A DNA stretch of 39,034 nt from Candidatus Allobutyricicoccus pentlandensis. GTDB lineage: Bacteria > Bacillota > Clostridia > Oscillospirales > QAMX01. The first letter of the stretch is position 1. Each line of letters begins with the position of its first letter. The position numbers and the translations under genes are program-made. The notes under the pieces were generated by a model. The model searched no databases. It was given only the letters and a program-made list of their open reading frames with translations, and was not told the origin of the DNA. Of the stretch, positions 15,904-35,895 are shown piece by piece. The DNA is taken from the NCBI GenBank assembly GCA_904398645.1, contig CAJFPH010000125.1:1-39034 (forward strand). The letters are read 5' to 3'.

Positions 15904-16194
15904 ATGGGGACAAGAATTGCCGATTTGCAGTGCAAAGAGGTCGTAAATATTTGCGACGGGGCCAGAATGGGCTATGTGAACGATGTCGAGCTTGATATTA
16001 ACACGGGAAGACTCGTTGCGATTGTCGTGCCGGGACCGTGGAGTTTTTCCTGCCTCTTCTCAAAGGGGGAAGAGTATGTTGTGCCCTGGTGTCAAATTGA
16101 GAAGATCGGGGATGATATCATTCTTGTGCGGTTTGACACGCCGCCGCAACCACGGCATAGAAAAAAGGAACGGCGCCGCAAGTTCTTTATTTAA
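15904..16194 (+). CDS. ylmC: YlmC/YmxH family sporulation protein (PRC-barrel)
   Basis: 'DLQCKEVVNICDGARMGYVNDVELDINTGRLVAIVVPG' and 'YVVPWCQIEKIGDDIILV' are typical of the family. Confidence 0.85.
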   Translation: MGTRIADLQCKEVVNICDGARMGYVNDVELDINTGRLVAIVVPGPWSFSCLFSKGEEYVVPWCQIEKIGDDIILVRFDTPPQPRHRKKERRRKFFI

Positions 16195-17089
16195 TGACAT
16201 AGGAGTAATAGGAACCTGCCATACGCTGGCCATCTTGCACGAATGTTTCCAACAGACCGTCCGCGGCTGAAAACTCTTGTTCTATCAGCGACGCATAGAG
16301 CAGAAGGACTGCGACGGTTTCCGGAGAGTCCAGGTATTCGTTGCCGAGCGTAAGCAGACGGGTGATGTCCCCGTCTTCTATGATACGGGCCGACTCTTCG
16401 TCACATTTTCGAGCCGTCTGCTCGTCCTGATAGTGAGAAAAATCAGCGGAGCCAAGTATCAGAAGAGACTGTTCCTGTGCGGCGTCCGCGAGGGCGCTGG
16501 CAAGTGTACGCAACGGCCCATCGCCCGCGCCGCGTGACAGCAGAACAGTGACAACGCTGGTTTCTGGAAAATAGTGCGCAACGTAAGGAACCAGAAGCGA
16601 TGCGGACCAATCCTTGCGAGCCGCGGAATCGTCTGTTTCCAGGAGAAGCGCGCTGGCCAACGCATCTGCCAACGTCAGATTACCTGCCAGAGAACCGGAA
16701 CTCCAGTAGTATCCGTTGCCGCAAATCTGAATTGGCGCGCCTGTCCCTTCGTGGTTGGGCGCAATGATCACAACTGTGTCCGGCGCCTCAACAACGGACG
16801 ACAGAATATCGGACGCCAGATACATTGCGGGCGCGTAGTGTGGCACTACGGCGCCCGCAATGTATTGATAGGCGCTGGACGGTTCCGCGCCGGTGATCTG
16901 TGCGTAGACAACTTTAGCATCATAATAGCTGCATGCAATATAATTACGAGTGTCGTTCGATGTCTCCTGTGATAGGTCCGAGTCGAAGGACATGTCATCC
17001 AGAGGCTCTTCTGGAGAAGAAGCTGTGCAAGATATACAACAGAGACATAAAAAAGCGGTAAGCAGCAAACATAAATACCGTCTCATCAT
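16187..17089 (-). CDS. MEMO1 / AmmeMemoRadiSam system protein B family protein with a lipoprotein-type signal peptide
   Basis: 'GAVVPHYAPAMYLAS', 'VVIIAPNHEG' and 'ILGSADFSHYQDE' fit the MEMO/LigB-like motifs. The N-terminus MMRRYLCLLLTAFLCLCCISC is signal/lipobox-like. Its ATG overlaps the stop of the upstream gene (ATGA). Confidence 0.75.
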   Translation of the reverse strand: MMRRYLCLLLTAFLCLCCISCTASSPEEPLDDMSFDSDLSQETSNDTRNYIACSYYDAKVVYAQITGAEPSSAYQYIAGAVVPHYAPAMYLASDILSSVVEAPDTVVIIAPNHEGTGAPIQICGNGYYWSSGSLAGNLTLADALASALLLETDDSAARKDWSASLLVPYVAHYFPETSVVTVLLSRGAGDGPLRTLASALADAAQEQSLLILGSADFSHYQDEQTARKCDEESARIIEDGDITRLLTLGNEYLDSPETVAVLLLYASLIEQEFSAADGLLETFVQDGQRMAGSYYSYVIK

Positions 17090-20000
17090 TTAACCGTTAA
17101 CATGAACCTGTCGCCCAGCGCAAGTAAAGAAGACTCGACGCCCTTTACAATAGGTTCCTCAAAGATGAAATCACCTGTAAGGACGGCGCGTACTTCTATT
17201 GTAACCGTAAAGTCGCTGCGCAATGCCGTGTTACCTGCTTCATAGTTGCGGCGATCCAAAACGAAGGTGAGTCTGTTTGCCTCCTGCGAGACCAGATAGC
17301 ATCCGGAATTGTGGACATATTCATAGCTGGAATATCGCGTGCCGGAAGGAAGAACGAAATCCAGTGTATAAATTTCGCCGGGACAGTCTTCAGAAAACGT
17401 CACGTAAGACGTAATGCTGGCGATGCTGCCAACAGACAGACTCTCCGGTTCGCACGAAGTTGTGATGCTGATTTGGTCCGCTGCGTTTTCCTGCACGGAA
17501 TCCATGCCACCGGTGTAAACTGCCGTGTAACCTATGCTGCCGGATGTCACGCGGAAGTTCGCCGCCGCGAGATCTTCGCGGTTAAATTGCAAAATAACGG
17601 CAGGCGATTCAGAAAGCGACCACGTTTCGGTTTCTCCATTATAAGCACAGGAGAACGCCGCTGTTGAAGTGGGAAGCGCGGTGCGCGTGACGTAAGACAT
17701 CAGAGCAAAGGCAGGCAGTGTTTCACCGCTTTCGTTGCCAAGGAGGTACAGGATAAAGCCGTCCAGCTGCTGCGCGTCAATCAGATTTGCCAAAAGCGAC
17801 GCATAAACTGTGGCAGCATAATTTTCTTCGAACGTACCGATATCAACGTAATGCCATGTGTCGGATGTTTTCAGATAGGGGAGGACAAGCGCCTGATAAA
17901 GCTCTGTAGCACCGTCGTCATCACCGAGGAGTGCCAGCGCACAGGCAAGCAGGATCCGGTCGGAATCCGTAAAGCTATTCGTGTCGTCAACCAGGACGCG
18001 CAAATCGGAAAGTACCGGTTCGCGCATGGATGCAAGCCCCATATAAGCCGCTGCGATCTCTCCGGAGGTGGCGTTGTGGTTATTGATAATCCCATAGAGA
18101 TAGTTGACGGCCGCTCCCGCGTCGATATGTTCCACTGCGGAAACCAGTGCAAGCGCTGTGGTCAGAGCGTCCGGATCAGCATAGGAGAAGAGCCGTACAC
18201 CACCGCTGTAACCCTGATATGCGGAAAATTCAGGGCGTTCTATAGCCATTTCCGCGTCCGGATCAAGAGTTGAAAGGATATCGGCTGCCGTAATACGCGC
18301 AAGCGTTTGATCGACGCGTTGCCCGCTCATGGAGAGCAGTTCGGAGAGCGCAGACATATAAATCTGACGTTCCGCATCGTAGAAAATCATTGTGACCGGA
18401 TACTTAACGGCATCAATATCGACCGGATCCGAGAGATTGCCATAGGAAATGGCTGTCAACTCGTGACGGCTTTCCTCTATAAGAATCGTACGGGTAATAC
18501 CGTCACGCTGCGAACCGGAGTCTGCAAAAATGGTGATTTCATGACTGCCGGCTTCCAGCGGTCCCAAATTGAAATAGGTGTAACTGCCGGCTTTCCCCTC
18601 GGTCTCGACGACAGACTGACCGTCCACTGTTACCGTATAAGTCACGGCAGCGCCGTCCTGCGCGCCGTATACCCGCGCAGACAGCGAGACATCGTCTCCC
18701 ACTGTATAACTGTCGTTTAACACAAGATTGATGAAAAAGGGAATGGAGACTTCCACATTGTGCGTGGCGCTTCCGGCATACGCATTTTCTGAGACAACTG
18801 CCGCAGTGATGCGCCAGGAGGTCAGATTGTCGGGAAGCGTAAAGGAAAAGTCAGCATTACCAGAAGCGTCTGTCTGTCCGGTCAAAAAAGCCGCCGTATC
18901 GGCAAAATCATTTCGTGCCTCTTCCGAAGCCCCATCTCCACCGCCTTCCGCATAGGCGTCGCTCATATTTTTGTCAACATAAGAGACAAAACGAACCGGC
19001 TCTTCATAATAGCGCATGGTATAAAGCGACGACGCAGGATGAATCTGCTGATCCATGATGGCGAACAACGCTTCGTCAACAACACCGATGGCGTAACTTG
19101 CAGAAACGGGATTGCCCTCTGCATCTGTCACACGGATCGTGCCTTGAACTGTTCCGCCGGGAGAGTAGGCCTCTTCGTCAGTTGTGATATCTACAGAGAG
19201 CTCACGCTCGGTGTAGTCGTATAAAACATAGGCAGGCCGCACGGAGTAGACATGCTTTCCGTCAAAGTAGGCGGCGTAAATGACAACATTGGGGATCATT
19301 TCCTCTGTAAAGGTAAGGGAGAGTTTATTTTCCTCTGCGACGTCATAACGCAGTACATGATCGGTCATCGTCATATAAAGCGATGTGCCGGAAGTCACTT
19401 CCTCTGTACCACAAAGTCCGAAAACGGCGGTCTCCCCAAGCCGGAGATTACCGGCATCGGCATCTTCCCGCAAAAGATAGTAGCCATAGTAATATCCGCC
19501 CGGATAGGTGTCGCTGCCGAGATAAACAGACGTTTCAAAGGCAACGCCATCCGGGGAGGTATAGGTCACATCCATGCGGTAATAAGCGTTGTCGCTGTAA
19601 TCGGCATTTTGATAAGGCGTTGTGGTATATTGCCCGTTGACGGTTGTAAAATCTTCGCTGTACACGACTTCCTCATGACGTTCGTAGTCATAGGTATCAA
19701 CGGTAACTTTATTGATGGCGTCGTAATAGCTCCCGGTGGAATACTTTTCATAATAACACCGTACCAGCGTTGCCGTGCCGCTGACGTCCGCCGATTCGCC
19801 GCGCAATTCGTCAATGTGAGAGTAATAGTCGTTCAAATGTTCCTCAAACGAGACAAAATCAATGGCATTTGACTGAATTTCGACACTGAGTGAATGATCT
19901 GACGCAGCATTCGCCGTCAACATATAATCGCTCGGGAAGTAGTATGCCTGATCAAATGCACTGACATAGACGTCCTCTGCGCCGGTCGTGGATACATTAA

Positions 20001-22068
20001 CATACTGAGTTGTTGGCATCCAGTCTCCGCCATAGGTGTTGGGAAAAACTGTGGCCGACGCGCTGCCGCTGTCATCCAATGTGAGTACGTCGCCGTATGT
20101 GTCTTTTGTCAGCTGCACCGCGAGGCCGGCAGCCGGCGTACCATCGAAAAACTGACCGGATATCGCAACGTCGAGCGTTTCCCCTGCACGATAATAGTCC
20201 TGGTCAAACCCTACGGTGAGCACATAGGCCGGCTTTGTATACTCCATTACTGTATACGCAGTCGAGCAGAGCGTCTCGCCGTTTGCCGCAAAAGAAAGTG
20301 ATACATAGCCGGAGACGTTTCCTTCGAAGGAATAGGCGCCGGTAAACGTGCCGTCAGCCATGACTTCTACCGTGCCGACACTGCGCGGCTCTCCGACGGA
20401 AGATGCCAGAACTTCCAGCTCAGATGGGATAGAAGTTCCGTTTTTAGGAAGGATTACTCCCCAGTAGTGAACCGTATCGGTGGGTTGATAGACCTCACGA
20501 TCCAAATAAATATACGTGTAGTAATCGCCGGACACATTGGTGTCAGTCGTACCGTCTATGCCGACGTAATCCACAAACGTGCGGCTGCCTGATGAGACGC
20601 GAAGTTCTGCATAGGCGGCGTCCGTTTCCTGGTAGGAGATGGATGCCACGCCATCGGCGCCGGTTTTAGCGCTGGCGGCCGAGTCACCGGCGGTCAACGT
20701 GACGTCGGCGCCGGAAAGTACATTGCCGGACTGCGTGTCATGCAGCCAGACGAGCGCTTCACCGTTTAATGCCTGGTAGTAAACGGAAAGTGAGGAGACC
20801 TGAATCAGCTTTTGTACCGTATATGTCGTACCTGCGTTGTCAGAGACGCTGATTTCAGCCAAATACCAACCCTCCACTAAATCAGGGAGAAGCACATACG
20901 AGGGCGTATACCAATAACCGTTTTCCATGGTCACGATTTCCGCCTCAAACGTATCGAGCTGTGTAAGGCCGTCGTGTGACACCTGCACGTCGCCATCGGC
21001 GCCGAGAACCGGATGTAGCGCCCCATACTTTTCTTCTGCAAGGTCTCGGTAGCGATCCGCACTGCCGACGTTGTAAAGCGTTACATGCGCCGTTTTGAAT
21101 TCCTCCGAGGCATAGATGCCGACAGCAATCGCGTCGCCGGGGACGAAGGTTTCGGTAAAGGCGTCTGACAAATAGAACTGCAGGGTATTGCCGACATCTT
21201 CAGCGGGCGTACGGAAGCTGAATTCATATGCAGCTTCCATCACTTCGCCTGACTCTGCGGTAAGGCCCGGCTGTATGGTGACGGTATAGACTGTATTGGG
21301 CGCAAGATTTTCATCAGGAACAAACGCAACGGTTTTGCCATAGTAAAGGAAGGAGCCGGAAACAGACGGCGAAATTTCAAAATAGTCTTCCATTCCGGAT
21401 GAAATCATACGTGAAAAGTTGATTTCAATGCCGGTTTCCAGCGGCATACCGTCTGTGTTATCGCCGGGGAGTGTTGATTCTACACGCAAAGACGCATCTG
21501 TCTGAAATGCCCAGGACTTAGCCGTATCGTCACCTGTCGCAATGGAGACTGTGACAATCTCGCCGTCCTCAAACGGTTCGGACGGAGTCAACGTATAAAG
21601 CGTCTCATTTTCTGCCTGCAAGGTAAAGTCCACGGCAGGCTCGATTGTGATGCGGTCTTCCAGATCATCGGCAGAAATGATTCCTCCGGCGACCTCAATG
21701 AAAAATTCGGTGTCCGGCGTCACGACGCCGGATGTCCTCGCCGCGGCGAGGACATCAAAAGTCATGCCGTCCGCAATATCGCCGGAATCCCCGGAGTTTC
21801 CAGTATTTTCCACATTGTTTGCGGCGGTATTTCCGTCATTCGGATCGCTGCTGCCTGCGGGAAGCATTGGCAGGACGATAAACACGAGAAGCAGACAGGC
21901 CAACGCCAAGGCTCCTGCGGAGTACGCCCAACCGTAACTACGCCGGGACCTTCGTCCGCGTTCGCCCGCCGCGATACGGCGGCGGACCTCCGCTTTCTGG
22001 CCCTCGGTCATCGTCATATCCTGCAAATAGCGATCAACGATGTCTTTTAGTTTGGTTAATTTACTCAA
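17086..22068 (-). CDS. Single-pass membrane protein: short cytoplasmic anti-sigma-like N-terminus, Ig-like (SbsA_Ig) domains and an alpha-2-macroglobulin-like ectodomain
   Basis: The N-terminal ~45 aa are followed by a TM helix (GALALACLLLVFIVLPML). SbsA-Ig-like segment 'APNTVYTVTIQPGLTAESGE'. MG-domain-like 'DREVYQPTDTVHYWGVILPK'. A2M hallmark 'FSFTLPDNLTSWRITAAVVSEN'. An alpha-helical TED-like C-terminal region is present. No C-x-E-Q motif anywhere. TTG start at 22068 with GGAGG 9 nt upstream, 23 nt after the ECF sigma stop. Confidence 0.82.
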   Translation of the reverse strand: MSKLTKLKDIVDRYLQDMTMTEGQKAEVRRRIAAGERGRRSRRSYGWAYSAGALALACLLLVFIVLPMLPAGSSDPNDGNTAANNVENTGNSGDSGDIADGMTFDVLAAARTSGVVTPDTEFFIEVAGGIISADDLEDRITIEPAVDFTLQAENETLYTLTPSEPFEDGEIVTVSIATGDDTAKSWAFQTDASLRVESTLPGDNTDGMPLETGIEINFSRMISSGMEDYFEISPSVSGSFLYYGKTVAFVPDENLAPNTVYTVTIQPGLTAESGEVMEAAYEFSFRTPAEDVGNTLQFYLSDAFTETFVPGDAIAVGIYASEEFKTAHVTLYNVGSADRYRDLAEEKYGALHPVLGADGDVQVSHDGLTQLDTFEAEIVTMENGYWYTPSYVLLPDLVEGWYLAEISVSDNAGTTYTVQKLIQVSSLSVYYQALNGEALVWLHDTQSGNVLSGADVTLTAGDSAASAKTGADGVASISYQETDAAYAELRVSSGSRTFVDYVGIDGTTDTNVSGDYYTYIYLDREVYQPTDTVHYWGVILPKNGTSIPSELEVLASSVGEPRSVGTVEVMADGTFTGAYSFEGNVSGYVSLSFAANGETLCSTAYTVMEYTKPAYVLTVGFDQDYYRAGETLDVAISGQFFDGTPAAGLAVQLTKDTYGDVLTLDDSGSASATVFPNTYGGDWMPTTQYVNVSTTGAEDVYVSAFDQAYYFPSDYMLTANAASDHSLSVEIQSNAIDFVSFEEHLNDYYSHIDELRGESADVSGTATLVRCYYEKYSTGSYYDAINKVTVDTYDYERHEEVVYSEDFTTVNGQYTTTPYQNADYSDNAYYRMDVTYTSPDGVAFETSVYLGSDTYPGGYYYGYYLLREDADAGNLRLGETAVFGLCGTEEVTSGTSLYMTMTDHVLRYDVAEENKLSLTFTEEMIPNVVIYAAYFDGKHVYSVRPAYVLYDYTERELSVDITTDEEAYSPGGTVQGTIRVTDAEGNPVSASYAIGVVDEALFAIMDQQIHPASSLYTMRYYEEPVRFVSYVDKNMSDAYAEGGGDGASEEARNDFADTAAFLTGQTDASGNADFSFTLPDNLTSWRITAAVVSENAYAGSATHNVEVSIPFFINLVLNDSYTVGDDVSLSARVYGAQDGAAVTYTVTVDGQSVVETEGKAGSYTYFNLGPLEAGSHEITIFADSGSQRDGITRTILIEESRHELTAISYGNLSDPVDIDAVKYPVTMIFYDAERQIYMSALSELLSMSGQRVDQTLARITAADILSTLDPDAEMAIERPEFSAYQGYSGGVRLFSYADPDALTTALALVSAVEHIDAGAAVNYLYGIINNHNATSGEIAAAYMGLASMREPVLSDLRVLVDDTNSFTDSDRILLACALALLGDDDGATELYQALVLPYLKTSDTWHYVDIGTFEENYAATVYASLLANLIDAQQLDGFILYLLGNESGETLPAFALMSYVTRTALPTSTAAFSCAYNGETETWSLSESPAVILQFNREDLAAANFRVTSGSIGYTAVYTGGMDSVQENAADQISITTSCEPESLSVGSIASITSYVTFSEDCPGEIYTLDFVLPSGTRYSSYEYVHNSGCYLVSQEANRLTFVLDRRNYEAGNTALRSDFTVTIEVRAVLTGDFIFEEPIVKGVESSLLALGDRFMLTVK

Positions 22069-22091
22069 TCTTAAAAACCTCCGAAAGCCGT

Positions 22092-22616
22092 TTAGATCGT
22101 TTCATCCTGCAGTATATTGCGAAGCATATCGCGTCCACGCTTTAACCGGACATTAACCGTAGATTTTGCGGTATGCTGTATATGTGCGATTTCTTCCGCT
22201 TTGAAACCGTCATAATAATAAAGGAGGATTGTCTGCCGGTAGATATCGGGCAGGCTCTGTATGGCGTCGAGCAGGACGATATTCTCGTCGCGATCAATTG
22301 CATCCTGTTCCGGTGTACCGGACGCATCTGCAGCCATATAGTCTGAAAATTCCTCCGGACGGTCGCGATAGGAACGCTTACGCATCATATCGCGACACAC
22401 GTTCATCGCAATACGGGTAATCCAGGTTTTCTCACTGGATTCCGAACGGAATGAAGAATATTTTGAATAGACCTTGATGAACGTCTCCTGTACGGCATCC
22501 TGTGCCAGATGATAATCTTTTAAATACAGATAGCATAGGCGCAGCAAGCCTGTGCCATAAGAATCCATGATCCTGTCGAGATCAGGCAGATCGTTTGTAG
22601 TTGTGAAAAACAGCAC
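22092..22616 (-). CDS. ECF-type sigma-70 family RNA polymerase sigma factor
   Basis: Region 2 'HLAQDAVQETFIKVY..WITRIAMNVCRDMMRKR'. Region 4 'LPDIYRQTILLYYYDGFKAEEIAHIQHTAKSTVNVRLKRGRDML'. The start is uncertain: GTG 22616 has AGGAGG at good spacing, ATG 22622 abuts the SD, and the track ORF starts at 22658. Confidence 0.82.
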   Translation of the reverse strand: MLFFTTTNDLPDLDRIMDSYGTGLLRLCYLYLKDYHLAQDAVQETFIKVYSKYSSFRSESSEKTWITRIAMNVCRDMMRKRSYRDRPEEFSDYMAADASGTPEQDAIDRDENIVLLDAIQSLPDIYRQTILLYYYDGFKAEEIAHIQHTAKSTVNVRLKRGRDMLRNILQDETI

Positions 22617-22704
22617 TGTCATCCTCCTGCAATGTGAGCAATCCGCCGTTTCATACATTAGACGAATGATACGACTGATAAATTACGATGAATGAGATAT
22701 GAAA

Positions 22705-22736
22705 ATAGTATACCATAAATATAGTATACCATAAAT
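22705..22736. repeat. Perfect 16-bp tandem direct repeat x2 (ATAGTATACCATAAAT)
   Basis: Read directly: 22705-22720 is identical to 22721-22736. Each unit has a GTATAC palindromic core. On the minus strand each unit reads TGGTATACT (extended -10-like). It lies about 85-120 nt upstream of the ECF sigma start. Confidence 0.9.
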
Positions 22737-22769
22737 TAAGATGAAAAAAAGAGAAAAAAAGTTTTATGT

Positions 22770-22805
22770 GCAAAAAGAAAGACGCGATTATAAAATAATC
22801 GCGTC
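22770..22805 (-). terminator. Intrinsic terminator of sigE
   Basis: 10-bp stem GACGCGAUUA/UAAUCGCGUC with a 5-nt loop, followed on the minus strand by UUUCUUUUU. Confidence 0.8.
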
Positions 22806-22853
22806 AAAACGAAAATGATTGGTTAAAATCTGAACGAAAAGAGACGTCCACAA

Positions 22854-23582
22854 TCAGATCAGCCGTGCAATATCATTTTTTAGTTTTGAGATAATTTTCT
22901 TTTCCAGTCTTGAAATATAGGATTGTGAAATTCCCATTAAATCGGCCACTTCCTTTTGCGTCATTTCCCGCACGCCGCCGAGGCCGAACCGCAGCGTTAT
23001 GATTTGCCGCTCCCGTTCGTTTAGCCGTCCAAGCGCTTCAGAGAGAAGCTGGCGGTCGGCATCGTCTTCCAAAGGTCGGATGACGCTGTCTGGTTCTGTG
23101 CCGAGAATATCGGAGAGCAACAGCTCATTTCCGTCCCAATCGGTATTGAGCGGCTCGTCAATTGATATTTCATGGCGCCTGTTGGAACTTTTACGCAGGA
23201 ACATTAATATTTCGTTTTCAATGCAGCGCGATGCATAGGTGGCGAGTTTTATGTTTTTGGCAGGATCGTAGGTATGAATCGCCTTAATCAAGCCGATCGT
23301 ACCAATGGAAATCAGGTCTTCGATATTGACATTTGTGTTTTCAAATTTTCGCGCTATGTAGACGACAAGTCTGAGATTGCGTTCGATGAAGATACGGCTG
23401 ACCTCCTGATCGCCGTAATGTTCCATCAGGCGAAGTTCCTCCTCCGGTGAGAGCGGCTGAGGCAGGCTTTCCGCGCCGCCGATATAGAAGATGCTACCGG
23501 TTCGTCCAATACCGCGCAGCCATTTGAACCGGTTTTTCAGCAGATAAATCCGGGTTAAAAACGTTTTCCAAAAGTGCTTCAT
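22854..23582 (-). CDS. sigE: Sporulation sigma factor SigE (pro-sigma-E)
   Basis: '[14 protein letters not shown]', '[35 protein letters not shown]' and '[14 protein letters not shown]' closely parallel B. subtilis SigE. It lies 16 nt downstream of spoIIGA. ATG 23582 has AGGAGG upstream. Confidence 0.92.
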
Positions 23583-23598
23583 GCCAGGCTCCTCCTTT

Positions 23599-24468
23599 TC
23601 ATGCGCCAATTACTGCGCCGCATCCTGTTTCTTCCGATAGTTCTGTTTCCGTAAGCGCAACAAGCGCGCCTTCCAATGCGTTGTCGTTTTCCCGGACGCT
23701 GTCTGCCCGCAGGGCCAGCAGCAAACCATGTTTTGTGCCAATGGCACGATAGGGAATCAGGCGAAACCCATCACCGTACCCTGCGCCTGCAAGCATCCTG
23801 AGCGTTTCGGCCGCATCGGAAACGCCAAACACATCAAAGATCGCACGCATGCCATGTGGAAATGCATCACGTACCCGGGTGTATTCCACAACGACGATAC
23901 GGCCGTTTGTAAGCGGATCGGTAAGCCGGTTACCGGTGTCTACCATTGCCTCCAGTTCAATCGTTTTTCCAAACAGTGTGATCGCTACAACGGTACGCAG
24001 TACCGCATGTTCAGAGAGCCTCGGCGCATTTTTCAGGAGCAATGTCATAATCAAGTAGGCGCCAAGCGCTACTGCAATGAGAACGGTTGAAGAGATCCCT
24101 GCGTACAAGACGCCGTTGCGCACAGCGGCATTTTCCGGGTTTGTAAATTTGAAAAGCGCCATCATGGCGCCGGCGAACGCAAAACTGACTACATAAAAAA
24201 TCAATGTTCGCCGTAGAAAGGTTCTCCAGTCATGAAAACCGTATGAGATTACGCTCATCAATGCTGAAAATGCCGTCTTTGCAAGGACGGTATAAAAAAT
24301 ATGTAGCTCCGGAAAAAACATAAAGCAGGCATAGAGGGCGCCTGCTGCCGCTCCGGCAAAGATACGCAGACGCTTGATCTGTGAACCGCAAAGCATGGCG
24401 GAGGTGAGGAGCAGCAGGTAATTGATGATAAGGTTTAAAATAAAGAGCTCATCTATATATACGACCAT
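23599..24468 (-). CDS. spoIIGA: Sigma-E processing peptidase SpoIIGA
   Basis: Polytopic N-terminus '[19 protein letters not shown]'. Aspartic protease motif '[12 protein letters not shown]'. Located immediately upstream of sigE. Confidence 0.9.
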
Positions 24469-26116: not shown

Positions 26117-26254
26117 TTAAATTTTCCCGCGGCAAATTATCAAGACAATTGCACAGACCACACCGAGTACAAGAGACGCCGCTGTGCAGGTCAGTAACGC
26201 ATCCCATGTAATTTGTCCTGTTAAAATTGTATCAAGCACAGACGAGCACCCCAT
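26117..26254 (-). pseudogene. DUF4956 family membrane protein, N-terminal fragment (first TM helix only)
   Basis: The product is MGCSSVLDTILTGQITWDALLTCTAASLVLGVVCAIVLIIC, then RGKI and a stop. It overlaps the VTC gene stop by 23 nt, as a second operon gene would. The rest of the family sequence is missing here and is found at 35329 on the other strand. Confidence 0.6.
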
Positions 26255-26948
26255 TCTTGCCAAGAACCTGTTCTTTATAGTAGGTTCCATATTTAGAAAA
26301 CGACGTCGGGTAAACCGCAAGCCGGTCCAAAAGTTCACAGAGCCAAAGCGGCACCGCATCTGGAACTTTGACTTCCATCAGATAGGCCGTGGGCGGGAGC
26401 AGGTTAAAACCCGGCTCCCGCGATTCAAGCCGTAGCGCGTCGCTCTGCCATCGGAGGTTGCTGTCAAAAGTGACGCGCACCCCGTCGTCCTCGCGACCGG
26501 TAAACGCGATGCGGTCATAAGAAAGCCTGACCGCTGGCGACGGTTTATAAAATTGAAGAAACCAATCGATTTCATGATGGATTTGTTCTTCGTTGGCGGG
26601 TTTGTACGTCCCTGCCAAATACGCGTAGGCATCCATAAGCGGCATGGCAATGCGGCGTTTATATACAATACCGCGATATTTTTTCTTTAGTTCCACAAAC
26701 GCCATGCTCTCTTGCGTCGTGACGCCATAGGTGCGCAGACGGAGCTTTTCCTTATAAACCGGCTTGTCTAAAGATGCACGGATCAGTCTGTAGTCCTCTG
26801 TATCGTAATAAAGGCTGTTGACCCTTGCCTCAGCGAAGCGGTCCGGTTTCATATAAGTCTCTAGTTGTCCCATAAGGGTTGCATATTGCTCTGTATTTAA
26901 CAGATACTTTATTTCACGGCGCTGAAACACCGTCTGATAATTCTGCAT
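26232..26948 (-). CDS. VTC domain (polyphosphate-polymerase-like, triphosphate tunnel fold) protein
   Basis: 'FQRREIKYLL', 'NSLYYDT.DYRLIRASLDKPVYKEKLRLRTYG', 'FVELKKKYRGIVYKRR', 'LMEVKV' fit bacterial VTC (PF09359-type) proteins. Confidence 0.82.
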   Translation of the reverse strand: MQNYQTVFQRREIKYLLNTEQYATLMGQLETYMKPDRFAEARVNSLYYDTEDYRLIRASLDKPVYKEKLRLRTYGVTTQESMAFVELKKKYRGIVYKRRIAMPLMDAYAYLAGTYKPANEEQIHHEIDWFLQFYKPSPAVRLSYDRIAFTGREDDGVRVTFDSNLRWQSDALRLESREPGFNLLPPTAYLMEVKVPDAVPLWLCELLDRLAVYPTSFSKYGTYYKEQVLGKNGVLVCA

Positions 26949-27087: not shown

Positions 27088-27768
27088 GTGAACATCCTGA
27101 TTGTGGAAGATGAAAAAAGGCTTGCCGATGTGCTCGTACAGATCATGCGTGAAGCAAAATATCAGGCAGAGGCGGTTTACGACGGACAGGACGGTATTGA
27201 CTATGCGCTCGGTGGGGACTATGATGTTATCATCTTAGATGTCATGCTGCCGAAAAAGGATGGCTTTGCCGTCGTTCGTGCTCTGCGGGAATCCAAACGT
27301 GCGACTCCTGTCCTGATGCTCACCGCACGCAGCGATGTCTCCGACCGGGTCGCCGGCCTTGACTGCGGTGCCGACGACTATCTGACAAAACCGTTTGCAA
27401 CGGAAGAACTCCTGGCGCGTGTACGTGCACTCTCCTGCCGGCAGGGGGAAATTGTCCTGGACGTTCTACAGTACGGGGATTTGGAATTCTCCGTCGATAC
27501 ACATGATCTCAAGTGCAGCGCACGGTCTGTACGGCTCAGTTTGAAGGAATTTGAAGTTTTACGAATTTTAATGTCTGCACCCCGTACAATTGTTTCCAAA
27601 GAAATGCTGATCACAAAAGTATGGGGTTATGATTCCGAAGCTGAGGCAAACAATGTAGAGGCGTACATATCCTTTCTGCGGAGAAAGCTGCATTATTTGG
27701 GATCTCGCGTCTCTATCAACGTCATACGAAAAGTCGGATACCGGCTTGATGAGGATGCGTCATGCTGA
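27088..27768 (+). CDS. OmpR/PhoB-family response regulator
   Basis: Receiver domain 'ILIVEDE...DVIILDVMLPKKDG...LTAR'. Winged-helix C-terminus 'LSLKEFEVLRILM...VEAYISFLRRKL...IRKVGYRL'. GTG start at 27088. Confidence 0.9.
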   Translation: MNILIVEDEKRLADVLVQIMREAKYQAEAVYDGQDGIDYALGGDYDVIILDVMLPKKDGFAVVRALRESKRATPVLMLTARSDVSDRVAGLDCGADDYLTKPFATEELLARVRALSCRQGEIVLDVLQYGDLEFSVDTHDLKCSARSVRLSLKEFEVLRILMSAPRTIVSKEMLITKVWGYDSEAEANNVEAYISFLRRKLHYLGSRVSINVIRKVGYRLDEDASC

Positions 27769-28991
27769 AAAAACTACGCCGCCGGTTTGTAATCGTCGCT
27801 ATGACGCTCATTACTTCGGTTTTATTGCTGGTTTTTTTTGCATTAATTCTTTTCAATTATCAAAGATTCTCTGAGGATACTCAACAGGCATTGGAACGTG
27901 TTCTGCGGCTGCCTCCCGGAGAAAATGTGACTGGACCGGAAATCGGACTGCCTGGTGAGAGAGAGCCCGGGTTCGATGCCTTGGCCTTTAGCGTTTATCT
28001 GGATTCGGACGGCAACGTCCTGGGCGTCAGTAAAGGCGGTGTCTCCGTGTCGGACGAAACACTTGAAACCGCTGTGCAGCTGGCCTTGGCGGCGGAAAAT
28101 CCTACCGGTGTCCTGACCGGCCTGTCACTCCGGTATTTAAAACGCTCGGACAGTATGGGAATCCGAATTGCATTTGCCGACACATCGCGTGAAATGGAAA
28201 ATATGCGTAACCTCGTATTGAGCTCTCTTGCCGTCGGTCTGAGCGGCTGGGCTGCATTTCTCGTGATTACGCTATTCCTATCCCGGCAAATTATACGTCC
28301 CGTCGAACGTGCCTGGGCACAGCAACGCCGTTTCGTTGCAGATGCCTCACATGAGTTGAAAACTCCCCTTACCGTCATTTTGGCAAACGTCGATCTTTTG
28401 CTTCTGCATAAAAACGAGCCTCTGTGTGATCACATACAGTGGCTCGTCAATTCACGGGAAGAGGCCGTAAAAATGAAGGGGCTTGTGGAAGATATGCTTT
28501 TTTTGGCGCGGTCTGATTCCGGGCGGGAACAGCCCGTTTTAGCAGACGTTAACTTCAGCGATATCGTAACCAGCTGCCTGCTTTCTTTCGAGCCTGTCGC
28601 CTTTGAGCATAACGTCGCTCTGGAGTCAGAAGTAGAGCCGGAACTTCATATAAAGGGCGACGGCGTTCAGCTTTACCGCTTAATCGCTATTTTAGCTGAC
28701 AATGCCGTCAAATACGCGGGAGATGGTGGGCGTGTTATGATAACGCTTTCCCTGTCAGGGGGACATCCGCTTTTGCGTGTCCAAAACACCGGAGAAACCA
28801 TACCCAGTGAAGATATACCAAATGTATTCGACCGTTTTTACCGTGCCGACCAATCTCGTAACAGCGATCGAGGGGGCTATGGGCTTGGCCTCTCCATCGC
28901 AAAAGAAATTGCGGAACAACACAGGGCTAAAATTGAGTTAAGCTCCAGCCGCGATCATCTCACGGTTTTTCAAGTTCTCTTTTCAACATAA
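27762..28991 (+). CDS. Sensor histidine kinase (2 TM, HisKA + HATPase_c)
   Basis: H-box 'FVADASHELKTPLTVI', N-box 'LADNAVKYA', G-boxes 'DRFYRADQSR..GGYGLGLSIAKEI'. It overlaps the RR stop by 7 nt. Confidence 0.9.
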   Translation: MLKKLRRRFVIVAMTLITSVLLLVFFALILFNYQRFSEDTQQALERVLRLPPGENVTGPEIGLPGEREPGFDALAFSVYLDSDGNVLGVSKGGVSVSDETLETAVQLALAAENPTGVLTGLSLRYLKRSDSMGIRIAFADTSREMENMRNLVLSSLAVGLSGWAAFLVITLFLSRQIIRPVERAWAQQRRFVADASHELKTPLTVILANVDLLLLHKNEPLCDHIQWLVNSREEAVKMKGLVEDMLFLARSDSGREQPVLADVNFSDIVTSCLLSFEPVAFEHNVALESEVEPELHIKGDGVQLYRLIAILADNAVKYAGDGGRVMITLSLSGGHPLLRVQNTGETIPSEDIPNVFDRFYRADQSRNSDRGGYGLGLSIAKEIAEQHRAKIELSSSRDHLTVFQVLFST

Positions 28992-29159: not shown

Positions 29160-29807
29160 TTATCTGGCAAGCCCATACCCCACAATGGAACGCAGAGGCT
29201 CCTGAAGCTGGCGGTCATACTTGACTTTTAAAACCAGCGTTCTGGCACTGTCTAGCGGCATTGCAGTAATCTCCGGTTCTAAAAAGCCCTCTGCGCGGTT
29301 GGTCGTACGGATATTGATATCCACGCCAATGCGCACATTACCGATACGTGACTCCAGCGCAATTTTATCATTGTCTATGACGTTCTTCGTTACAAACTCA
29401 TCGACTACGAGCTTCTGATAAAACTCGCGCACCAGCTCGTCCTCGCTCTCGGAAAGCCAGGTAAAATCGCGATTCAAAATAGCTTTGCACTCTTCGACCG
29501 TAATCGGTGTATACGCCGTCATGACCCGTTTTTCAAATGAACTTTCCTTGCAAAGCCGGAGCGTTCCAAGATCATGATTATAATACCTGATAAAAAACTG
29601 GTCGACGCGCTCACCGCGAAGTTTCCGGCTCCGCGAGGCGCGCACACGCTTCCGTCCGAAATACACAGTTCGGACATGATACTTTCCCTTTTCATCCGTA
29701 AACGGCGCGTTTGAAACGTATTCTTTCAGCTTTGCGAGCATCGGAACAAACTCGCCATGCGTTACATAGCGCTTAAACTCGTTTCTTACCGCTGTCACTT
29801 CCATCAC
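29160..29807 (-). CDS. Second, divergent VTC-domain-like protein (orphan paralogue)
   Basis: 'RNEFKRYV' (the E-x-K start of the tunnel fold), 'VRTVYFG', 'QFFIRYYNHDLGTLRLCKES', 'ITVEECKAIL', 'LVLKVKYD' match the Clostridial VTC-like pattern from memory. GGGAGA RBS is present. Confidence 0.65.
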   Translation of the reverse strand: MMEVTAVRNEFKRYVTHGEFVPMLAKLKEYVSNAPFTDEKGKYHVRTVYFGRKRVRASRSRKLRGERVDQFFIRYYNHDLGTLRLCKESSFEKRVMTAYTPITVEECKAILNRDFTWLSESEDELVREFYQKLVVDEFVTKNVIDNDKIALESRIGNVRIGVDINIRTTNRAEGFLEPEITAMPLDSARTLVLKVKYDRQLQEPLRSIVGYGLAR

Positions 29808-35328: not shown

Positions 35329-35895
35329 ATGTTTCGCAATACCTATACAAAAAGCTTTGTTATTACATTGGCGTTACTACCTGCAATTGTACAGGCGGTG
35401 ATCATGCTGGTAAATGGTAACCTGGGCACGGGCGTTGCTGTGATGGGAGCATTTAGTCTTGTGAGATTTCGTTCGGTACCGGGCAGTGCCAGAGAAATTT
35501 GCAGCCTGTTTCTCGCCATGGCGTTGGGTCTGGCAACTGGAATGGGGTATATTGGAATCGCTGTATTTTTGGCTGTCGTTTTGAATCTTGTACAGGTTTT
35601 GTTGGTGCTATCCAAATTTGGGGAAGGGGTGAGCGAAGAAAAAGAGTTGAAAATTACGATTCCGGAGAGCCTCGACTATACAGGCATTTTTGACGATATC
35701 TTTGTCACACATACCAGACGTGCAGAACTTATGCGGGTAAAGACCAGTAATATGGGTAGTCTTTATGAACTTTGTTACCGCGTCACGCTGAAAAACCGAA
35801 ATACGGAAAAACAGATGATAGACGAAATACGTTGCCGCAACGGAAATCTTACTATCGTATGCGGCAAGGTGCCGGTTAGCAGGGAAGAACTATGA
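35329..35895 (+). pseudogene. DUF4956 family membrane protein, C-terminal ~4/5 (lacks first TM helix)
   Basis: 'MFRNTYTKSFVITLALLPAIVQAVIMLVNGNLGTGVAVMGAFSLVRFRSVPGSAREI..LAMALGLATGMGY' is the conserved DUF4956 core. A stop lies 10 codons upstream in frame. It complements the fragment at 26117-26254. Expression as a truncated protein from ATG 35329 is still possible. Confidence 0.7.

What the first reader, a model, noticed from the sequence alone, without database searches (positions are those of the whole stretch)
16187..22658. ECF sigma operon whose anti-sigma position is occupied by a 1660-aa alpha-2-macroglobulin-like membrane protein, coupled to an exported MEMO-family lipoprotein
An ECF sigma gene (22092-22616) is followed 23 nt later by a very large gene. 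Its product has a ~45-aa cytoplasmic N-terminus, one TM helix, Ig-like domains and an A2M-type body (MG domains and the '...PDNLTSWRITA' signature). This is the standard genomic position and topology of a single-pass anti-sigma factor. The last gene overlaps by ATGA and encodes a MEMO-like lipoprotein. Established examples show that an anti-sigma ectodomain can directly bind a host enzyme: RsiV binds lysozyme to release SigV. Bacterial A2Ms are protease traps that change conformation on bait cleavage and are usually paired with PBP1c. A fusion of the two ideas, a protease-sensing anti-sigma factor, is not something I know to be described.
Basis: inference. Interest (0 to 1): 0.75.

Follow-up and report, generated by a model that had tools for sequence, protein, structure and literature searches.

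The report
Protease-trap protein fused to anti-sigma anchor
A gut-type Clostridia bacterium carries a giant, thioester-less alpha-2-macroglobulin-like surface protein whose short inner tail is the kind that holds a stress sigma factor in check, so cleavage of the protein-trap by outside proteases probably switches on its own operon; the same tail is also found on serpins, which suggests a previously undescribed way for bacteria to sense proteases.

Summary
On the minus strand lie an autoregulated ECF sigma gene (22092-22616), a 1660-aa single-pass protein 23 nt downstream (17086-22068), and an ATGA-coupled exported Memo-like gene (16187-17089).

The large protein models as a bacterial A2M (Foldseek E~1e-45 to ECAM and SaA2M). 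It has a disordered bait-like loop and no CxEQ thioester.

Comparative genomics supports the anti-sigma reading:
- A2M-like plus Memo is the ancestral pair (51/76 loci), and most members are lipoproteins without a sigma.
- All 17 members with a sigma directly upstream have a long cytoplasmic N-terminus (17/0 against 8/50, p=4e-11).
- At least four unrelated ECF groups are involved.
- The window's two-helix N-terminal module recurs on the DUF4179-type single-pass partners of related sigmas.
- The same module occurs on membrane-anchored serpins next to sigmas of the same subgroup.
- A thioester-bearing A2M with a different N-terminus also follows an ECF sigma.
- A GTAAY-N17-CGTCTAAT promoter precedes these operons.

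Sigma binding and protease-triggered release remain untested. The module matches no curated anti-sigma family. No description was found in the literature searched. I judge it a new variant of single-pass anti-sigma signalling, with high interest.

The parts
22781..22805 (-). Intrinsic terminator of the upstream spoIIGA-sigE unit (GACGCGATTAT-TTT-ATAATCGCGTC followed by a T-run). It marks the 5' boundary of the ECF operon.
   Evidence: Terminator scan: 11-bp stem, 2 sites found against 0.1 expected. Pfam on the neighbours gives SigE-like and SpoIIGA.
22705..22735 (-). Tandem duplicated 15-mer TTTATGGTATACTAT (22705-22719 and 22721-22735). Each copy holds an extended -10-like TGGTATACT. This is a probable housekeeping-sigma promoter that gives basal expression.
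   Evidence: Sequence. Similar TGnTATACT/TGnTAGAAT elements lie upstream in L001, L004, L009, L090, L094 and L112. Function is inferred.
22657..22686 (-). ECF-type promoter GTAAT-N17-CGTCTAAT. This is the probable autoregulatory promoter of the operon.
   Evidence: It is the only exact match to GWMAY-N17-CGTCYAA in the 39-kb window. The same motif lies 45-70 nt upstream of the sigma gene in L001, L004, L089, L090, L093, L094, L095, L098 and L112, with near-variants in L002 and L009. In L092 it lies ahead of the serpin-sigma operon.
22092..22616 (-). ECF (group 4) sigma factor, 174 aa, GTG start, RBS AGGAGG at 22623-22628.
   Evidence: Pfam Sigma70_r2 3e-15 and Sigma70_r4_2 6e-12. TIGR02937 sigma70-ECF scores 97 bits against a cut-off of 42.9. 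The closest solved structure is SigW, 4e-19.
17086..22068 (-). 1660-aa single-pass membrane protein. It has a cytoplasmic two-helix module, a TM helix, a disordered linker and a thioester-less A2M-like ectodomain. It is the proposed cognate anti-sigma factor and protease bait.
21961..22068 (-). Cytoplasmic two-helix module (aa 1-36, followed by a basic stretch at aa 37-46). It is the proposed sigma-binding domain. Signature: hydrophobic7-[KR]8-xx-hydrophobic11-D12-xx-L15-xx-hydrophobic18-x-hydrophobic20-[TSD]21-xxx-[KR]25-xx-[VI]28.
   Evidence: AF2 helices at 2-15 and 22-36. Alignment of 38 distinct partners of related sigmas. A profile search recovers the module on serpins. There is no match to curated ASD families.
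21862..21930 (-). Single transmembrane helix (aa 47-69).
   Evidence: Hydropathy analysis and the AF2 helix at 47-65.
21763..21861 (-). Disordered, low-complexity juxtamembrane linker (aa 70-102, GSSDPNDGNTAANNVENTGNSGDSGD...). It is a candidate site-1 cleavage or shedding region.
   Evidence: pLDDT is below 50 over residues 66-98. The cleavage role is inferred.
21208..21489 (-). Bacterial Ig-like domain (Big_5, aa 194-287).
   Evidence: Pfam 1e-15. The region is all-beta in the model.
19060..19458 (-). A2M bait-region domain (aa 871-1003).
   Evidence: Pfam A2M_BRD 3e-11.
18922..18996 (-). Bait-like flexible loop (aa 1025-1049, ...DKNMSDAYAEGGGDGASEEARNDF...).
   Evidence: It is the longest low-confidence segment of the 1160-residue model, model residues 525-549. 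It lies between A2M_BRD and the A2M domain. Across the family it is hypervariable in length (about 15-60 aa) and in sequence.
18811..18837 (-). LPDNLTSWR motif within the Pfam A2M domain (aa 1078-1086). It is the most conserved stretch of the family.
   Evidence: (the motif served as the scan pattern).
17683..18366 (-). TED-like all-helical domain (aa 1235-1462). GQRVDQ (18307-18324) stands where A2Ms carry the CxEQ thioester, so no thioester is present.
   Evidence: Helices at model residues 735-962. CxEQ is absent in the window protein and in all but one of 39 family members; in that one member CxEQ is not at the thioester position. Distant bacterial A2Ms do have it. Alignment of the site.
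16187..17089 (-). Exported Memo-like protein (300 aa), translationally coupled by an ATGA overlap. It is the ancestral partner of this A2M-like family. Its role is unknown.
   Evidence: Pfam Memo 46.9 bits (cut-off 27) and TIGR04336 78 bits (cut-off 26). A Memo gene lies directly downstream in 51 of 76 family loci, and most of these carry signal peptides or lipoboxes.

Best explanation
The cassette is a self-contained ECF sigma/anti-sigma unit, and the anti-sigma factor is itself a membrane-tethered protease bait.

Shown:
- The sigma is an ECF sigma with a conserved ECF-type promoter in front of its own operon.
- The next gene encodes a protein with the N-terminus inside the cell, a single TM helix and an A2M-fold ectodomain. 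The ectodomain has an exposed bait-like loop and no thioester.
- The 36-aa two-helix cytoplasmic module is the one carried by the single-pass partners of related sigmas.
- That module is present exactly when a sigma gene is adjacent.

Inferred:
- At rest the module sequesters the sigma at the membrane.
- An exogenous protease, from the host, a competitor or the cell itself, attacks the ectodomain at the bait loop or the disordered juxtamembrane linker. The ectodomain is then remodelled or shed.
- The remaining stub becomes a substrate for regulated intramembrane proteolysis, through a site-2 protease and then cytoplasmic proteases, as for RsiV, RsiW and RseA.
- The freed sigma transcribes its own operon, which replenishes the A2M-like protein and its Memo-like partner, and possibly other genes.

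Sensor and effector would then be the same molecule: consumption of the trap induces its resynthesis. The occurrence of the same module, with the same sigma subgroup, on serpins points to proteolysis as the signal. Serpins are an unrelated fold that also works by being cleaved.
For: Gene order, spacing and topology.

A2M fold: the AF2 model has pLDDT 85 and pTM 0.72. Foldseek matches ECAM (5a42) at 6.6e-45 and SaA2M (4u48) at 7.9e-45.

Bait-like loop: it is disordered in the model and hypervariable across the family.

Conserved cassette: it recurs at 35-50% identity, including in loci with different flanks.

Sigma-less homologues: they have lipoprotein or signal-peptide N-termini, and most keep Memo.

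Correlation of an adjacent sigma with a long cytoplasmic N-terminus: 17/0 against 8/50, Fisher p=3.6e-11. In 7 of the 8 exceptions an internal start codon lies within 18 residues of the TM helix, so the long N-terminus is probably an ORF-calling artefact.

At least four unrelated sigma groups (20-34% identity between groups) are linked to family members, which implies repeated recruitment.

A profile of the N-terminus, searched against 1.8 billion proteins, finds the module on three serpins. All three are adjacent to sigmas 41-49% identical to those of the window clade. Further serpin fusions exist: P0095, P0096 and P0098, plus Caprobacter fermentans P0110, which has another type of N-terminus and also a sigma upstream.

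Sigma relatives at 35-47% identity are followed by 270-480-aa single-pass proteins with the same module. Of 10 scanned, 6 have sub-threshold DUF4179 matches. DUF4179 is the juxtamembrane domain of the RsiV and BAS1627 anti-sigma factors (PMC6066255). DUF4179 proteins are listed as anti-sigma factors of several Firmicutes ECF groups (PMC7826278).

A thioester-bearing A2M (P0060) with a long, different N-terminus also lies directly after an ECF sigma.

The promoter GTAAY-N17-CGTCTAAT is conserved upstream.

Thioester-less MagD is cleaved at its bait and still traps the protease (PMC5764988).

The serpin fusions keep small-residue hinge sequences of the inhibitory kind (GTKAAAGT, GTKAGAST, GTSTGAVT). 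These were read directly from the sequences.
Against: There is no direct evidence that the module binds sigma. The complex could not be modelled.

The module matches no Pfam, NCBIfam or PDB anti-sigma domain. It is shorter than class-I ASDs.

The DUF4179 matches in the partner proteins are all below Pfam's gathering score.

No thioester is present. A monomeric ectodomain may therefore not trap proteases covalently, and it may bind something other than proteases.

Within the window's own clade the 'bait' loop is fairly conserved. Nothing shows that it is cleaved.

No conserved AxA signal-peptidase site follows the TM helix, unlike RsiV. This was read from the N-terminal sequences.

No target promoter other than the operon's own was found in the 39-kb window, so the regulon is unknown.

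The role of Memo is unexplained.
Confidence: 0.55

Rival explanations
1. The large protein is the anti-sigma factor, but proteolysis of a bait is not the signal. The A2M-like ectodomain, with or without Memo, would sense some other envelope cue, such as a bound ligand, cell-wall state, or a metal or redox signal passed through the Memo-like partner. Alternatively the arrangement only provides homeostatic feedback on the protein's own abundance or folding.
For: The thioester is lost. Ig-like and MG domains are generic binding modules. The bait-like loop is fairly conserved within the window's clade. A conserved, translationally coupled Memo-like partner suggests a two-protein complex of unknown activity. 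Relatives of the same sigma use many unrelated ectodomains.
Against: The same module and sigma subgroup also carry serpins, and a second type of N-terminus does so too. What A2Ms and serpins share is being substrates and traps for proteases, which makes a non-protease signal less economical. Thioester-less MagD is still bait-cleaved and still traps (PMC5764988). A thioester-bearing A2M is also sigma-linked.
Confidence: 0.2
2. The large protein is not an anti-sigma factor. It and Memo would simply be the sigma's target genes, co-transcribed with it. The sigma would be controlled in another way, by an unlinked anti-sigma factor, by transcription alone, or by phosphorylation. The N-terminal segment would be only a membrane anchor.
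For: The module has no recognisable ASD. Some ECF groups have no identified anti-sigma factor (PMC7826278). There are no binding data.
Against: A plain anchor needs no conserved 36-aa amphipathic two-helix segment. Sigma-less homologues use lipoboxes or short signal anchors instead. The module follows the sigma subgroup across three unrelated ectodomain types, namely A2M-like, serpin and DUF4179-type. Other sigma groups linked to the family come with other long N-termini. The gene sits at the +1 position with a 23-nt gap, or a 4-nt overlap in relatives.
Confidence: 0.1
3. The cassette is a sporulation-stage device. Lying directly after spoIIGA-sigE, it would act in the mother cell or on the forespore surface, for example to protect spore envelope layers, rather than as a sensor of the environment.
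For: In the window and in L001-L003 the cassette lies between spoIIGA-sigE and a PRC-barrel gene. L112 shows the same sigE-side junction.
Against: A strong terminator separates the cassette from sigE, and it has its own promoters. In L004, L009, L095 and the serpin loci the same sigma subgroup sits in unrelated neighbourhoods. Family members also occur in Patescibacteria and Dehalococcoidia, lineages that to my knowledge are not spore formers; this was not tested here.
Confidence: 0.05

Closest known systems
RsiV-SigV and related DUF4179-type single-pass anti-sigma factors of Firmicutes (ECF30 and neighbouring groups; B. anthracis BAS1627)
   Same: The gene sits at +1 of an ECF sigma. The protein has its N-terminus inside the cell, a short cytoplasmic N-terminus, one TM helix and an ectodomain that directly recognises a host-type enzyme; RsiV binds lysozyme. 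Partners of the sigmas closest to the window's sigma show weak DUF4179 matches and share the window protein's N-terminal module. Release of such sigmas by regulated intramembrane proteolysis is established (PMC6066255, PMC8844934).
   Different: The window protein has no DUF4179 domain and no evident AxA signal-peptidase site. Its ectodomain is a 1590-aa A2M fold rather than a small lysozyme-binding domain. The presumed signal is an enzyme that cuts the sensor rather than one that merely binds it. No NCBIfam RsiV or SigV equivalog threshold is reached.
Type II bacterial alpha-2-macroglobulins (P. aeruginosa MagD, E. coli YfaS)
   Same: Both have the A2M multi-domain fold with a bait region and without the CxEQ thioester. 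MagD is bait-cleaved, traps the protease non-covalently, and works with operon-encoded partners (PMC5764988).
   Different: MagD is periplasmic in Gram-negatives, within the six-gene magABCDEF operon. The window protein belongs to a monoderm (Bacillota) lineage, is anchored by an N-terminal TM helix with a cytoplasmic module, is paired with a Memo-like protein, and follows an ECF sigma. Sequence similarity to any solved A2M is marginal (E~3e-4).
Type I bacterial alpha-2-macroglobulins (E. coli ECAM/YfhM, Salmonella SaA2M)
   Same: These are the best structural matches to the model (5a42, 4u48; E~1e-45). They have the same order of MG, bait-region, TED and C-terminal domains.
   Different: Type I proteins carry the CxEQ thioester, are lipoproteins, and are encoded next to PBP1c. 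None of these three features is found here.
MEMO1 / AmmeMemoRadiSam system protein B family
   Same: The last gene passes the Pfam Memo and TIGR04336 thresholds. It keeps the histidine-containing motifs PH..., PNH and DFSH, read directly from the sequence.
   Different: It is exported, with a signal peptide or lipobox. No AmmeMemoRadiSam A or radical-SAM partner genes lie nearby. It is coupled to an A2M-like gene instead.
Secreted or lipoprotein bacterial serpins
   Same: The serpin fusions found here have a full serpin domain (Pfam 1e-72 to 1e-87). Their closest relatives are ordinary lipoprotein serpins.
   Different: The fusions replace the lipobox with the anti-sigma-type module plus a TM helix, and they sit in ECF sigma operons. 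No paper found in the searched library places serpins and anti-sigma factors in this relation.

Membership tests
ECF (group 4) sigma-70 factors | Only sigma-2 and sigma-4 domains, about 170-200 aa | tested here: met
   Sigma70_r2 and Sigma70_r4_2 are the only domains found, in a 174-aa protein. TIGR02937 scores 97 bits against a cut-off of 42.9.
ECF (group 4) sigma-70 factors | Own promoter of ECF type (AAC-like -35, CGT-containing -10), implying autoregulation | tested here: met
   GTAAT-N17-CGTCTAAT lies at 22657-22686 and is conserved in position in at least 10 related loci. The -10 element equals that reported for ECF116. Promoter activity itself was not tested.
Single-pass anti-sigma factors released by regulated intramembrane proteolysis | Encoded next to, and co-transcribed with, the sigma gene | tested here: met
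   The gap is 23 nt with an RBS and no terminator. Relatives show 4-20-nt overlaps.
Single-pass anti-sigma factors released by regulated intramembrane proteolysis | Cytoplasmic N-terminus, one TM helix, extracytoplasmic C-terminal sensor domain | tested here: met
   Helices at 2-15 and 22-36, a basic stretch, a TM helix at 47-65, then the ectodomain.
Single-pass anti-sigma factors released by regulated intramembrane proteolysis | Recognisable anti-sigma domain (class I ASD/zf-HC2, RskA, RseA_N, or class II/III) | tested here: not met
   No Pfam, NCBIfam or PDB match for the module was found, either as single sequences or as a 33-sequence profile.
Single-pass anti-sigma factors released by regulated intramembrane proteolysis | N-terminal domain co-inherited with the sigma subgroup, independently of the ectodomain | tested here: met
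   The same module occurs on A2M-like, serpin and DUF4179-type partners of sigmas that are 35-84% identical. It is absent from sigma-less homologues.
Single-pass anti-sigma factors released by regulated intramembrane proteolysis | Physical binding and inhibition of the sigma; site-1 and site-2 cleavage on stimulus | not testable with these tools
A natural fused gene call, P0157, has a frameshifted sigma-4 region and was unusable.
DUF4179-type anti-sigma factors (RsiV, BAS1627) | DUF4179 (TM helix plus amphipathic helices holding the signal-peptidase site) directly after the N-terminus | tested here: not met
   The window protein has no DUF4179 hit. Six of 10 partners of related sigmas have weak, sub-threshold hits.
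Alpha-2-macroglobulin / thioester-containing protein superfamily | MG-domain ring, bait-region domain, TED-like helical domain and C-terminal MG8-like domain | tested here: met
   Pfam MG2, A2M_BRD and A2M. AF2 model of residues 501-1660 with pLDDT 85. Foldseek probability 1.00 to ECAM, SaA2M, TEP1, A2ML1, CD109 and C3-C5.
Type I bacterial A2M (ECAM/SaA2M) | CxEQ thioester | tested here: not met
   CxEQ is absent; GQRVDQ stands at the equivalent site.
Type I bacterial A2M (ECAM/SaA2M) | Lipoprotein anchor and adjacent PBP1c gene | tested here: not met
   The protein has a TM anchor with a cytoplasmic domain. No transglycosylase or transpeptidase gene lies next to it in the window or in L001-L008.
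Type II bacterial A2M (MagD/YfaS) | Thioester-less A2M with a bait region | tested here: met
   Bait cleavage itself was not tested.
Type II bacterial A2M (MagD/YfaS) | Encoded in the six-gene magABCDEF-type operon | tested here: not met
   The operon here is sigma, A2M-like, Memo only.
MEMO / AmmeMemoRadiSam system protein B | Profile match above the curated thresholds | tested here: met
   PF01875 scores 46.9 against 27, and TIGR04336 scores 78.4 against 26.
MEMO / AmmeMemoRadiSam system protein B | Cytoplasmic protein encoded with AmmeMemoRadiSam A and radical-SAM partners | tested here: not met
   The protein has a signal sequence. No such partner genes lie in the neighbourhood.

The most novel reading that the evidence does not exclude
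A2M-like proteins and serpins have been recruited repeatedly, onto several unrelated ECF anti-sigma anchors, as 'bait receptors'. They would be transmembrane sensors that detect extracellular proteolytic activity by being cleaved, and that convert the cleavage, through regulated intramembrane proteolysis, into transcription of more inhibitor. This would be a general class of bacterial protease-sensing signal transduction not described before. It would also be a third genomic type of bacterial A2M, paired with an exported Memo-like protein, found in monoderm lineages (Bacillota) and also in Chloroflexota and Patescibacteria.
Probability: 0.45. Interest if true: 0.9.

Novelty: new variant of a known kind. 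Interest (0 to 1): 0.78.

Why it matters
Sensing. Bacteria in the gut and in biofilms are exposed to host and competitor proteases, yet no dedicated receptor for proteolytic activity built on an inhibitor fold is known. If these proteins work as inferred, the two classic 'suicide-substrate' inhibitor folds, A2M and serpin, also serve as the input domains of a transcriptional switch.

Mechanism. That would explain how an inhibitor shield can be made on demand. It would add a new input type to ECF and regulated-intramembrane-proteolysis signalling.

Bacterial A2Ms. It would give thioester-less bacterial A2Ms, whose role is poorly understood, a concrete function. It would also open the A2M-like/Memo pair of monoderm bacteria to study.

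Applications. The system is compact: promoter, sigma and one sensor protein. Its bait loop should be re-programmable, as TEV-site baits were in MagD and SaA2M. It is therefore a candidate protease-responsive genetic switch.

Tried and rejected
- Word-indexed homologue search with the N-terminal alignment A1 returned only two fragment gene calls. The exhaustive profile search was needed to find the serpins.
- The natural fused gene call P0157 was considered as a substitute. Its sigma-4 region is out of frame, so it was rejected.
- Pfam, NCBIfam and PDB searches with the module, as single sequences and as profiles, gave only chance-level hits such as TgpA_N (which overlaps the TM helix), Itch and KDM2B.
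- A PDB sequence search with a DUF4179-type partner, meant to tie it to 3FBQ, found nothing.
- Assigning the sigma to a named ECF group was not possible. NCBIfam hits (sigma C-like PRK09415, SigW, SigM, SigV, SigX) are all below equivalog cut-offs. Only the -10 motif resembles ECF116.
- The search for additional regulon promoters in the window found only 1-mismatch hits, at about the chance rate (6 found against 2.3 expected).
- One literature search was wasted because 'memo' matched 'memory'.
- The better TM-scores to protease-activated ECAM (0.52-0.54) than to native ECAM (0.32) were noted. They were not used as evidence, because AF2 domain packing is unreliable with 38 sequences.
- A sporulation role suggested by the spoIIGA-sigE neighbourhood was considered and judged unlikely (see rivals).

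Full report
OBSERVATION

The minus strand between 22686 and 16187 holds a compact three-gene unit.
- The sigma ORF carries only Sigma70_r2 and Sigma70_r4_2, and it passes the ECF superfamily model TIGR02937.
- Its true start is the GTG at 22616, which gives 174 aa. AGGAGG lies 6 nt upstream of it. Orthologues start at the equivalent residue. The earlier ATG at 22658 falls inside the promoter -10 element.
- After a 23-nt gap containing GGAGG, a TTG at 22068 opens a 1660-aa ORF. Pfam finds Big_5, MG2, A2M_BRD and A2M in it.
- Its TGA stop overlaps the ATG of a 300-aa Memo-family protein that has a signal sequence.
- A strong intrinsic terminator at 22781-22805 separates the unit from the upstream spoIIGA-sigE genes. 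A PRC-barrel gene converges on its 3' end.
- The rest of the window is ordinary chromosomal DNA of a spore-forming Clostridia-type organism: addAB, recG, ddl, a two-component system and glycoside hydrolases.

ANATOMY OF THE LARGE PROTEIN

An AF2 model of residues 1-520 (pLDDT 81) gives two short helices at 2-15 and 22-36, a basic stretch, a TM helix at 47-65, a disordered low-complexity linker at 66-102, and then beta domains.

A model of residues 501-1660 (pLDDT 85, pTM 0.72) is all-beta MG-type domains, an all-helical domain at protein residues 1235-1462, and C-terminal beta domains. Its longest low-confidence segment is protein residues 1025-1049.

Foldseek against the PDB gives E. coli ECAM (5a42, 6.6e-45) and Salmonella A2M (4u48, 7.9e-45) as the top hits. 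TEP1, A2ML1, CD109 and complement C3-C5 follow, all with probability 1.00. Plain sequence search barely reaches any solved A2M (E~3e-4).

The disordered segment lies between A2M_BRD and the A2M domain, where bait regions lie. Across the family it varies from about 15 to 60 residues.

No family member has a CxEQ thioester at the equivalent site, where the window protein has GQRVDQ. More distant bacterial A2Ms recovered in the same search do have the thioester. The ectodomain is therefore a thioester-less A2M. This is comparable in that respect to type II A2Ms such as MagD, which are still bait-cleaved and still trap proteases (PMC5764988).

THE FAMILY AND ITS CONTEXTS

About 40 full-length relatives (1545-1733 aa) were found in public data, mostly Clostridia MAGs. 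A scan of GTDB species representatives gave 80 more loci. These come from Bacillota, Dehalococcoidia and other Chloroflexota, and Patescibacteria.

Two results stand out.
1. A Memo-like gene lies directly downstream in 51 of 76 loci where the downstream region is visible. It often overlaps by 4 nt and nearly always has a signal peptide or lipobox. A2M-like plus exported Memo is thus the core module. This context differs from the PBP1c pairing of type I A2Ms and from the mag operon of type II (PMC5764988).
2. Most members begin with a lipobox, a signal peptide or a short signal anchor, and have no sigma gene nearby.

Every member with an ECF sigma gene abutting its start has a cytoplasmic N-terminus, with 37 to 102 residues before the TM helix. 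There are 17 such non-redundant loci, after a sigma HMM recovered four that phmmer had missed. The contingency is 17/0 against 8/50, Fisher p=3.6e-11. In seven of the eight apparent exceptions an internal start codon lies within 18 residues of the TM helix, so they are probably over-extended ORF calls. The eighth (L088) has an acidic, low-complexity tail.

The linked sigmas fall into at least four groups that share only 20-34% identity with each other. Each group has its own type of N-terminus. This argues for repeated recruitment of the A2M-like ectodomain onto anti-sigma anchors.

A canonical thioester-bearing A2M (P0060; TED_complement and A2M_recep domains) has a long N-terminus of yet another kind. 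It too lies 16 nt after an ECF sigma gene.

THE N-TERMINAL MODULE

The window clade (at least 35% identity) shares MSKLxxLKDIVDxxLQxxTMTExQKAEVRRRI followed by a TM helix.

An exhaustive HMMER search of 1.84 billion representative proteins with this 72-column profile found the expected A2M-like proteins. It also found three proteins of 460-535 aa in which the same module and TM helix precede a complete serpin domain (Pfam 1e-72 to 1e-87).

All three serpin genes are adjacent to an ECF sigma. Two follow it with a 4-nt overlap. One precedes it in the same operon, and in that locus the gene after the sigma encodes an ordinary VWA lipoprotein. These sigmas are 41-49% identical to those of the window clade and share their signature motifs. 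They therefore belong to the same subgroup.

More serpin fusions with this module exist (P0095, P0096, P0098). A serpin from cultured Caprobacter fermentans has a different long N-terminus and also overlaps an upstream ECF sigma gene. Most related serpins are lipoproteins.

A metagenome scan with the sigma alignment returned 80 loci. Where a downstream gene is visible, sigmas 35-47% identical to the query are followed by single-pass proteins of about 270-480 aa, usually overlapping by 4-20 nt. Their N-termini align with the window module.

From 38 distinct sequences the signature is hydrophobic7-[KR]8-xx-hydrophobic11-D12-xx-L15-xx-hydrophobic18-x-hydrophobic20-[TSD]21-xxx-[KR]25-xx-[VI]28. 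This is two amphipathic helices.

Six of ten such partners give weak, sub-threshold DUF4179 hits just after the TM helix. DUF4179 is the juxtamembrane domain of RsiV and of the B. anthracis anti-sigma factor BAS1627 (PMC6066255). The ECF classification lists DUF4179 proteins as the anti-sigma factors of several Firmicutes groups (PMC7826278).

The module therefore travels with the sigma subgroup and not with the ectodomain. It sits on proteins of a kind already accepted as anti-sigma factors. It is, however, not itself part of any curated family: Pfam, NCBIfam and PDB searches with single sequences and profiles gave only chance-level hits.

PROMOTERS

GTAAT-N17-CGTCTAAT lies at 22657-22686. 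It is the only exact match to the degenerate motif in the window.

The same motif lies 45-70 nt upstream of the sigma start in L001, L004, L089, L090, L093, L094, L095, L098 and L112, with near-variants in L002 and L009. In L092 it lies ahead of the serpin-sigma operon. It is rare elsewhere in 0.9 Mb of searched sequence, counting both strands.

The -10 element equals that predicted for ECF116, the SigX group, but the sigma could not be assigned to a named group.

Further upstream, a tandem duplicated 15-mer carries extended -10-like TGGTATACT elements, and similar elements occur in relatives. This is consistent with basal housekeeping transcription plus ECF autoregulation. None of this was tested functionally.

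MECHANISM

Shown:
- an autoregulated-looking ECF operon;
- a +1 protein with the N-terminus inside the cell, a single TM helix, an A2M fold, a bait-like loop and no thioester;
- a conserved cytoplasmic module that is inherited together with the sigma subgroup;
- presence of a cytoplasmic N-terminus whenever a sigma is adjacent.

Inferred:
- The module sequesters the sigma.
- Proteolytic attack on the ectodomain, at the bait loop or the disordered linker, remodels or sheds it.
- The stub then enters regulated intramembrane proteolysis, as for RsiV, RsiW and RseA.
- The sigma re-induces the operon.

The strongest argument that proteolysis is the signal is convergence. Two unrelated folds share only the property of being cleaved by, and trapping, proteases. 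Both have been placed on the same anti-sigma module, and A2M folds have been placed on several others.

The serpin fusions retain small-residue hinge sequences of the inhibitory type (read).

I put about 0.8 on the anti-sigma assignment and about 0.5-0.55 on the full protease-sensing model.

Rivals are a non-protease signal or pure self-homeostasis (0.2), no anti-sigma function (0.1), and a sporulation-specific role (0.05).

COMPARISON AND NOVELTY

The system works like a single-pass ECF anti-sigma factor of the RsiV kind. It fails the membership tests for DUF4179 and for known ASD classes.

Its ectodomain belongs to the A2M superfamily by fold. It is neither type I (no thioester, no lipobox, no PBP1c) nor type II in the operon sense.

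Searches of 8 million open papers and of bioRxiv found nothing relevant that links anti-sigma or ECF factors with macroglobulins, bait regions or serpins. The supplementary group descriptions of the ECF classification held as text contain none of the terms macroglobulin, A2M or serpin; one of those files was truncated when stored. Subscription-only literature was not searchable.

I rate it a new variant of a known kind, that is, a new sensory principle for anti-sigma factors. It is immediately testable, for example with TEV-site baits.

LIMITS

- No binding, cleavage or expression data exist.
- The sigma/module complex could not be modelled here.
- The DUF4179 hits are below Pfam's threshold.
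- Most related loci come from MAGs or metagenome contigs, so some start codons and frameshifts (L084, L112) are uncertain.
- The regulon beyond the operon, and the function of Memo, are unknown.

Noticed in passing
window 16187-17089 with 17086-22068; loci L005-L087: A thioester-less A2M-like gene followed directly by an exported Memo-like gene, often with a 4-nt overlap, is a conserved pair in 51 of 76 loci. The loci span Bacillota, Chloroflexota (Dehalococcoidia) and Patescibacteria, and the pairing is independent of any sigma. This genomic context for bacterial A2Ms differs from the PBP1c and mag-operon types. The role of an extracytoplasmic Memo protein is unexplained.
   Followed up: partly
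L089 3474-5512; L090 3477-5608; L092 1653-3566; L175 2433-4368: Membrane-anchored serpins with a cytoplasmic anti-sigma-type N-terminus lie in ECF sigma operons. One is in cultured Caprobacter fermentans (GCA_009746625.1). Their closest serpin relatives are ordinary lipoproteins.
   Followed up: partly
L174 1154-6331 (also L173): A canonical thioester-bearing A2M (CxEQ, TED_complement, A2M_recep; 1540 aa) has an N-terminus of about 95 aa that resembles classical anti-sigma domains. It lies 16 nt after an ECF sigma gene. The neighbours include N_methyl and SBP_bac_10 genes, so it comes from a different, probably Gram-negative, lineage.
   Followed up: partly
window 22705-22735 (-): A perfect tandem duplication of the 15-mer TTTATGGTATACTAT, with one base between the copies. 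Each copy contains an extended -10-like TGGTATACT. It lies between the sigE terminator and the ECF promoter. Relatives have a single similar element.
   Followed up: partly
window 22092-24468 (-); L001-L003: The ECF cassette sits directly downstream of spoIIGA-sigE, the position where sigG lies in Bacillus by my recollection. No sigG-like gene is present anywhere in the 39-kb window. The synteny holds in L001-L003 and L112, but not in L004, L009 or L095.
   Followed up: partly
L112 6995-13434 (VOFE01000574.1); L084 3282-8870: The whole cassette is present, but both the sigma gene and the A2M-like gene are broken into several frames (about 8 pieces in L112). This is either pseudogenisation or indel errors in the assemblies.
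   Followed up: no
model of window residues 501-1660 (window 17089-20568): The AF2 model superposes better on protease-activated ECAM (4ziq TM 0.52, 4rtd TM 0.54) than on native ECAM or SaA2M (0.31-0.32). This may be a modelling artefact, or it may hint that the thioester-less protein rests in a different conformation.
   Followed up: no
L092 3568-5088: In the locus with the order serpin anti-sigma then sigma, the operon continues with a VWA/YfbK_C lipoprotein. In L089 and L090 the serpin gene is followed by small proteins with no Pfam hit, and in L089 also by a Big_14 protein. These are possible additional regulon members.
   Followed up: no
L109, L110, L128, L129: Several relatives of this sigma subgroup occur as divergently transcribed pairs of paralogous ECF sigma genes.
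   Followed up: no
window 26232-26948, 29160-29807, 35329-37880: Two VTC-domain proteins, a DUF4956 protein and a Cthe_2159-type carbohydrate-binding protein flank a two-component system (27088-28991). This was not examined further.
   Followed up: no
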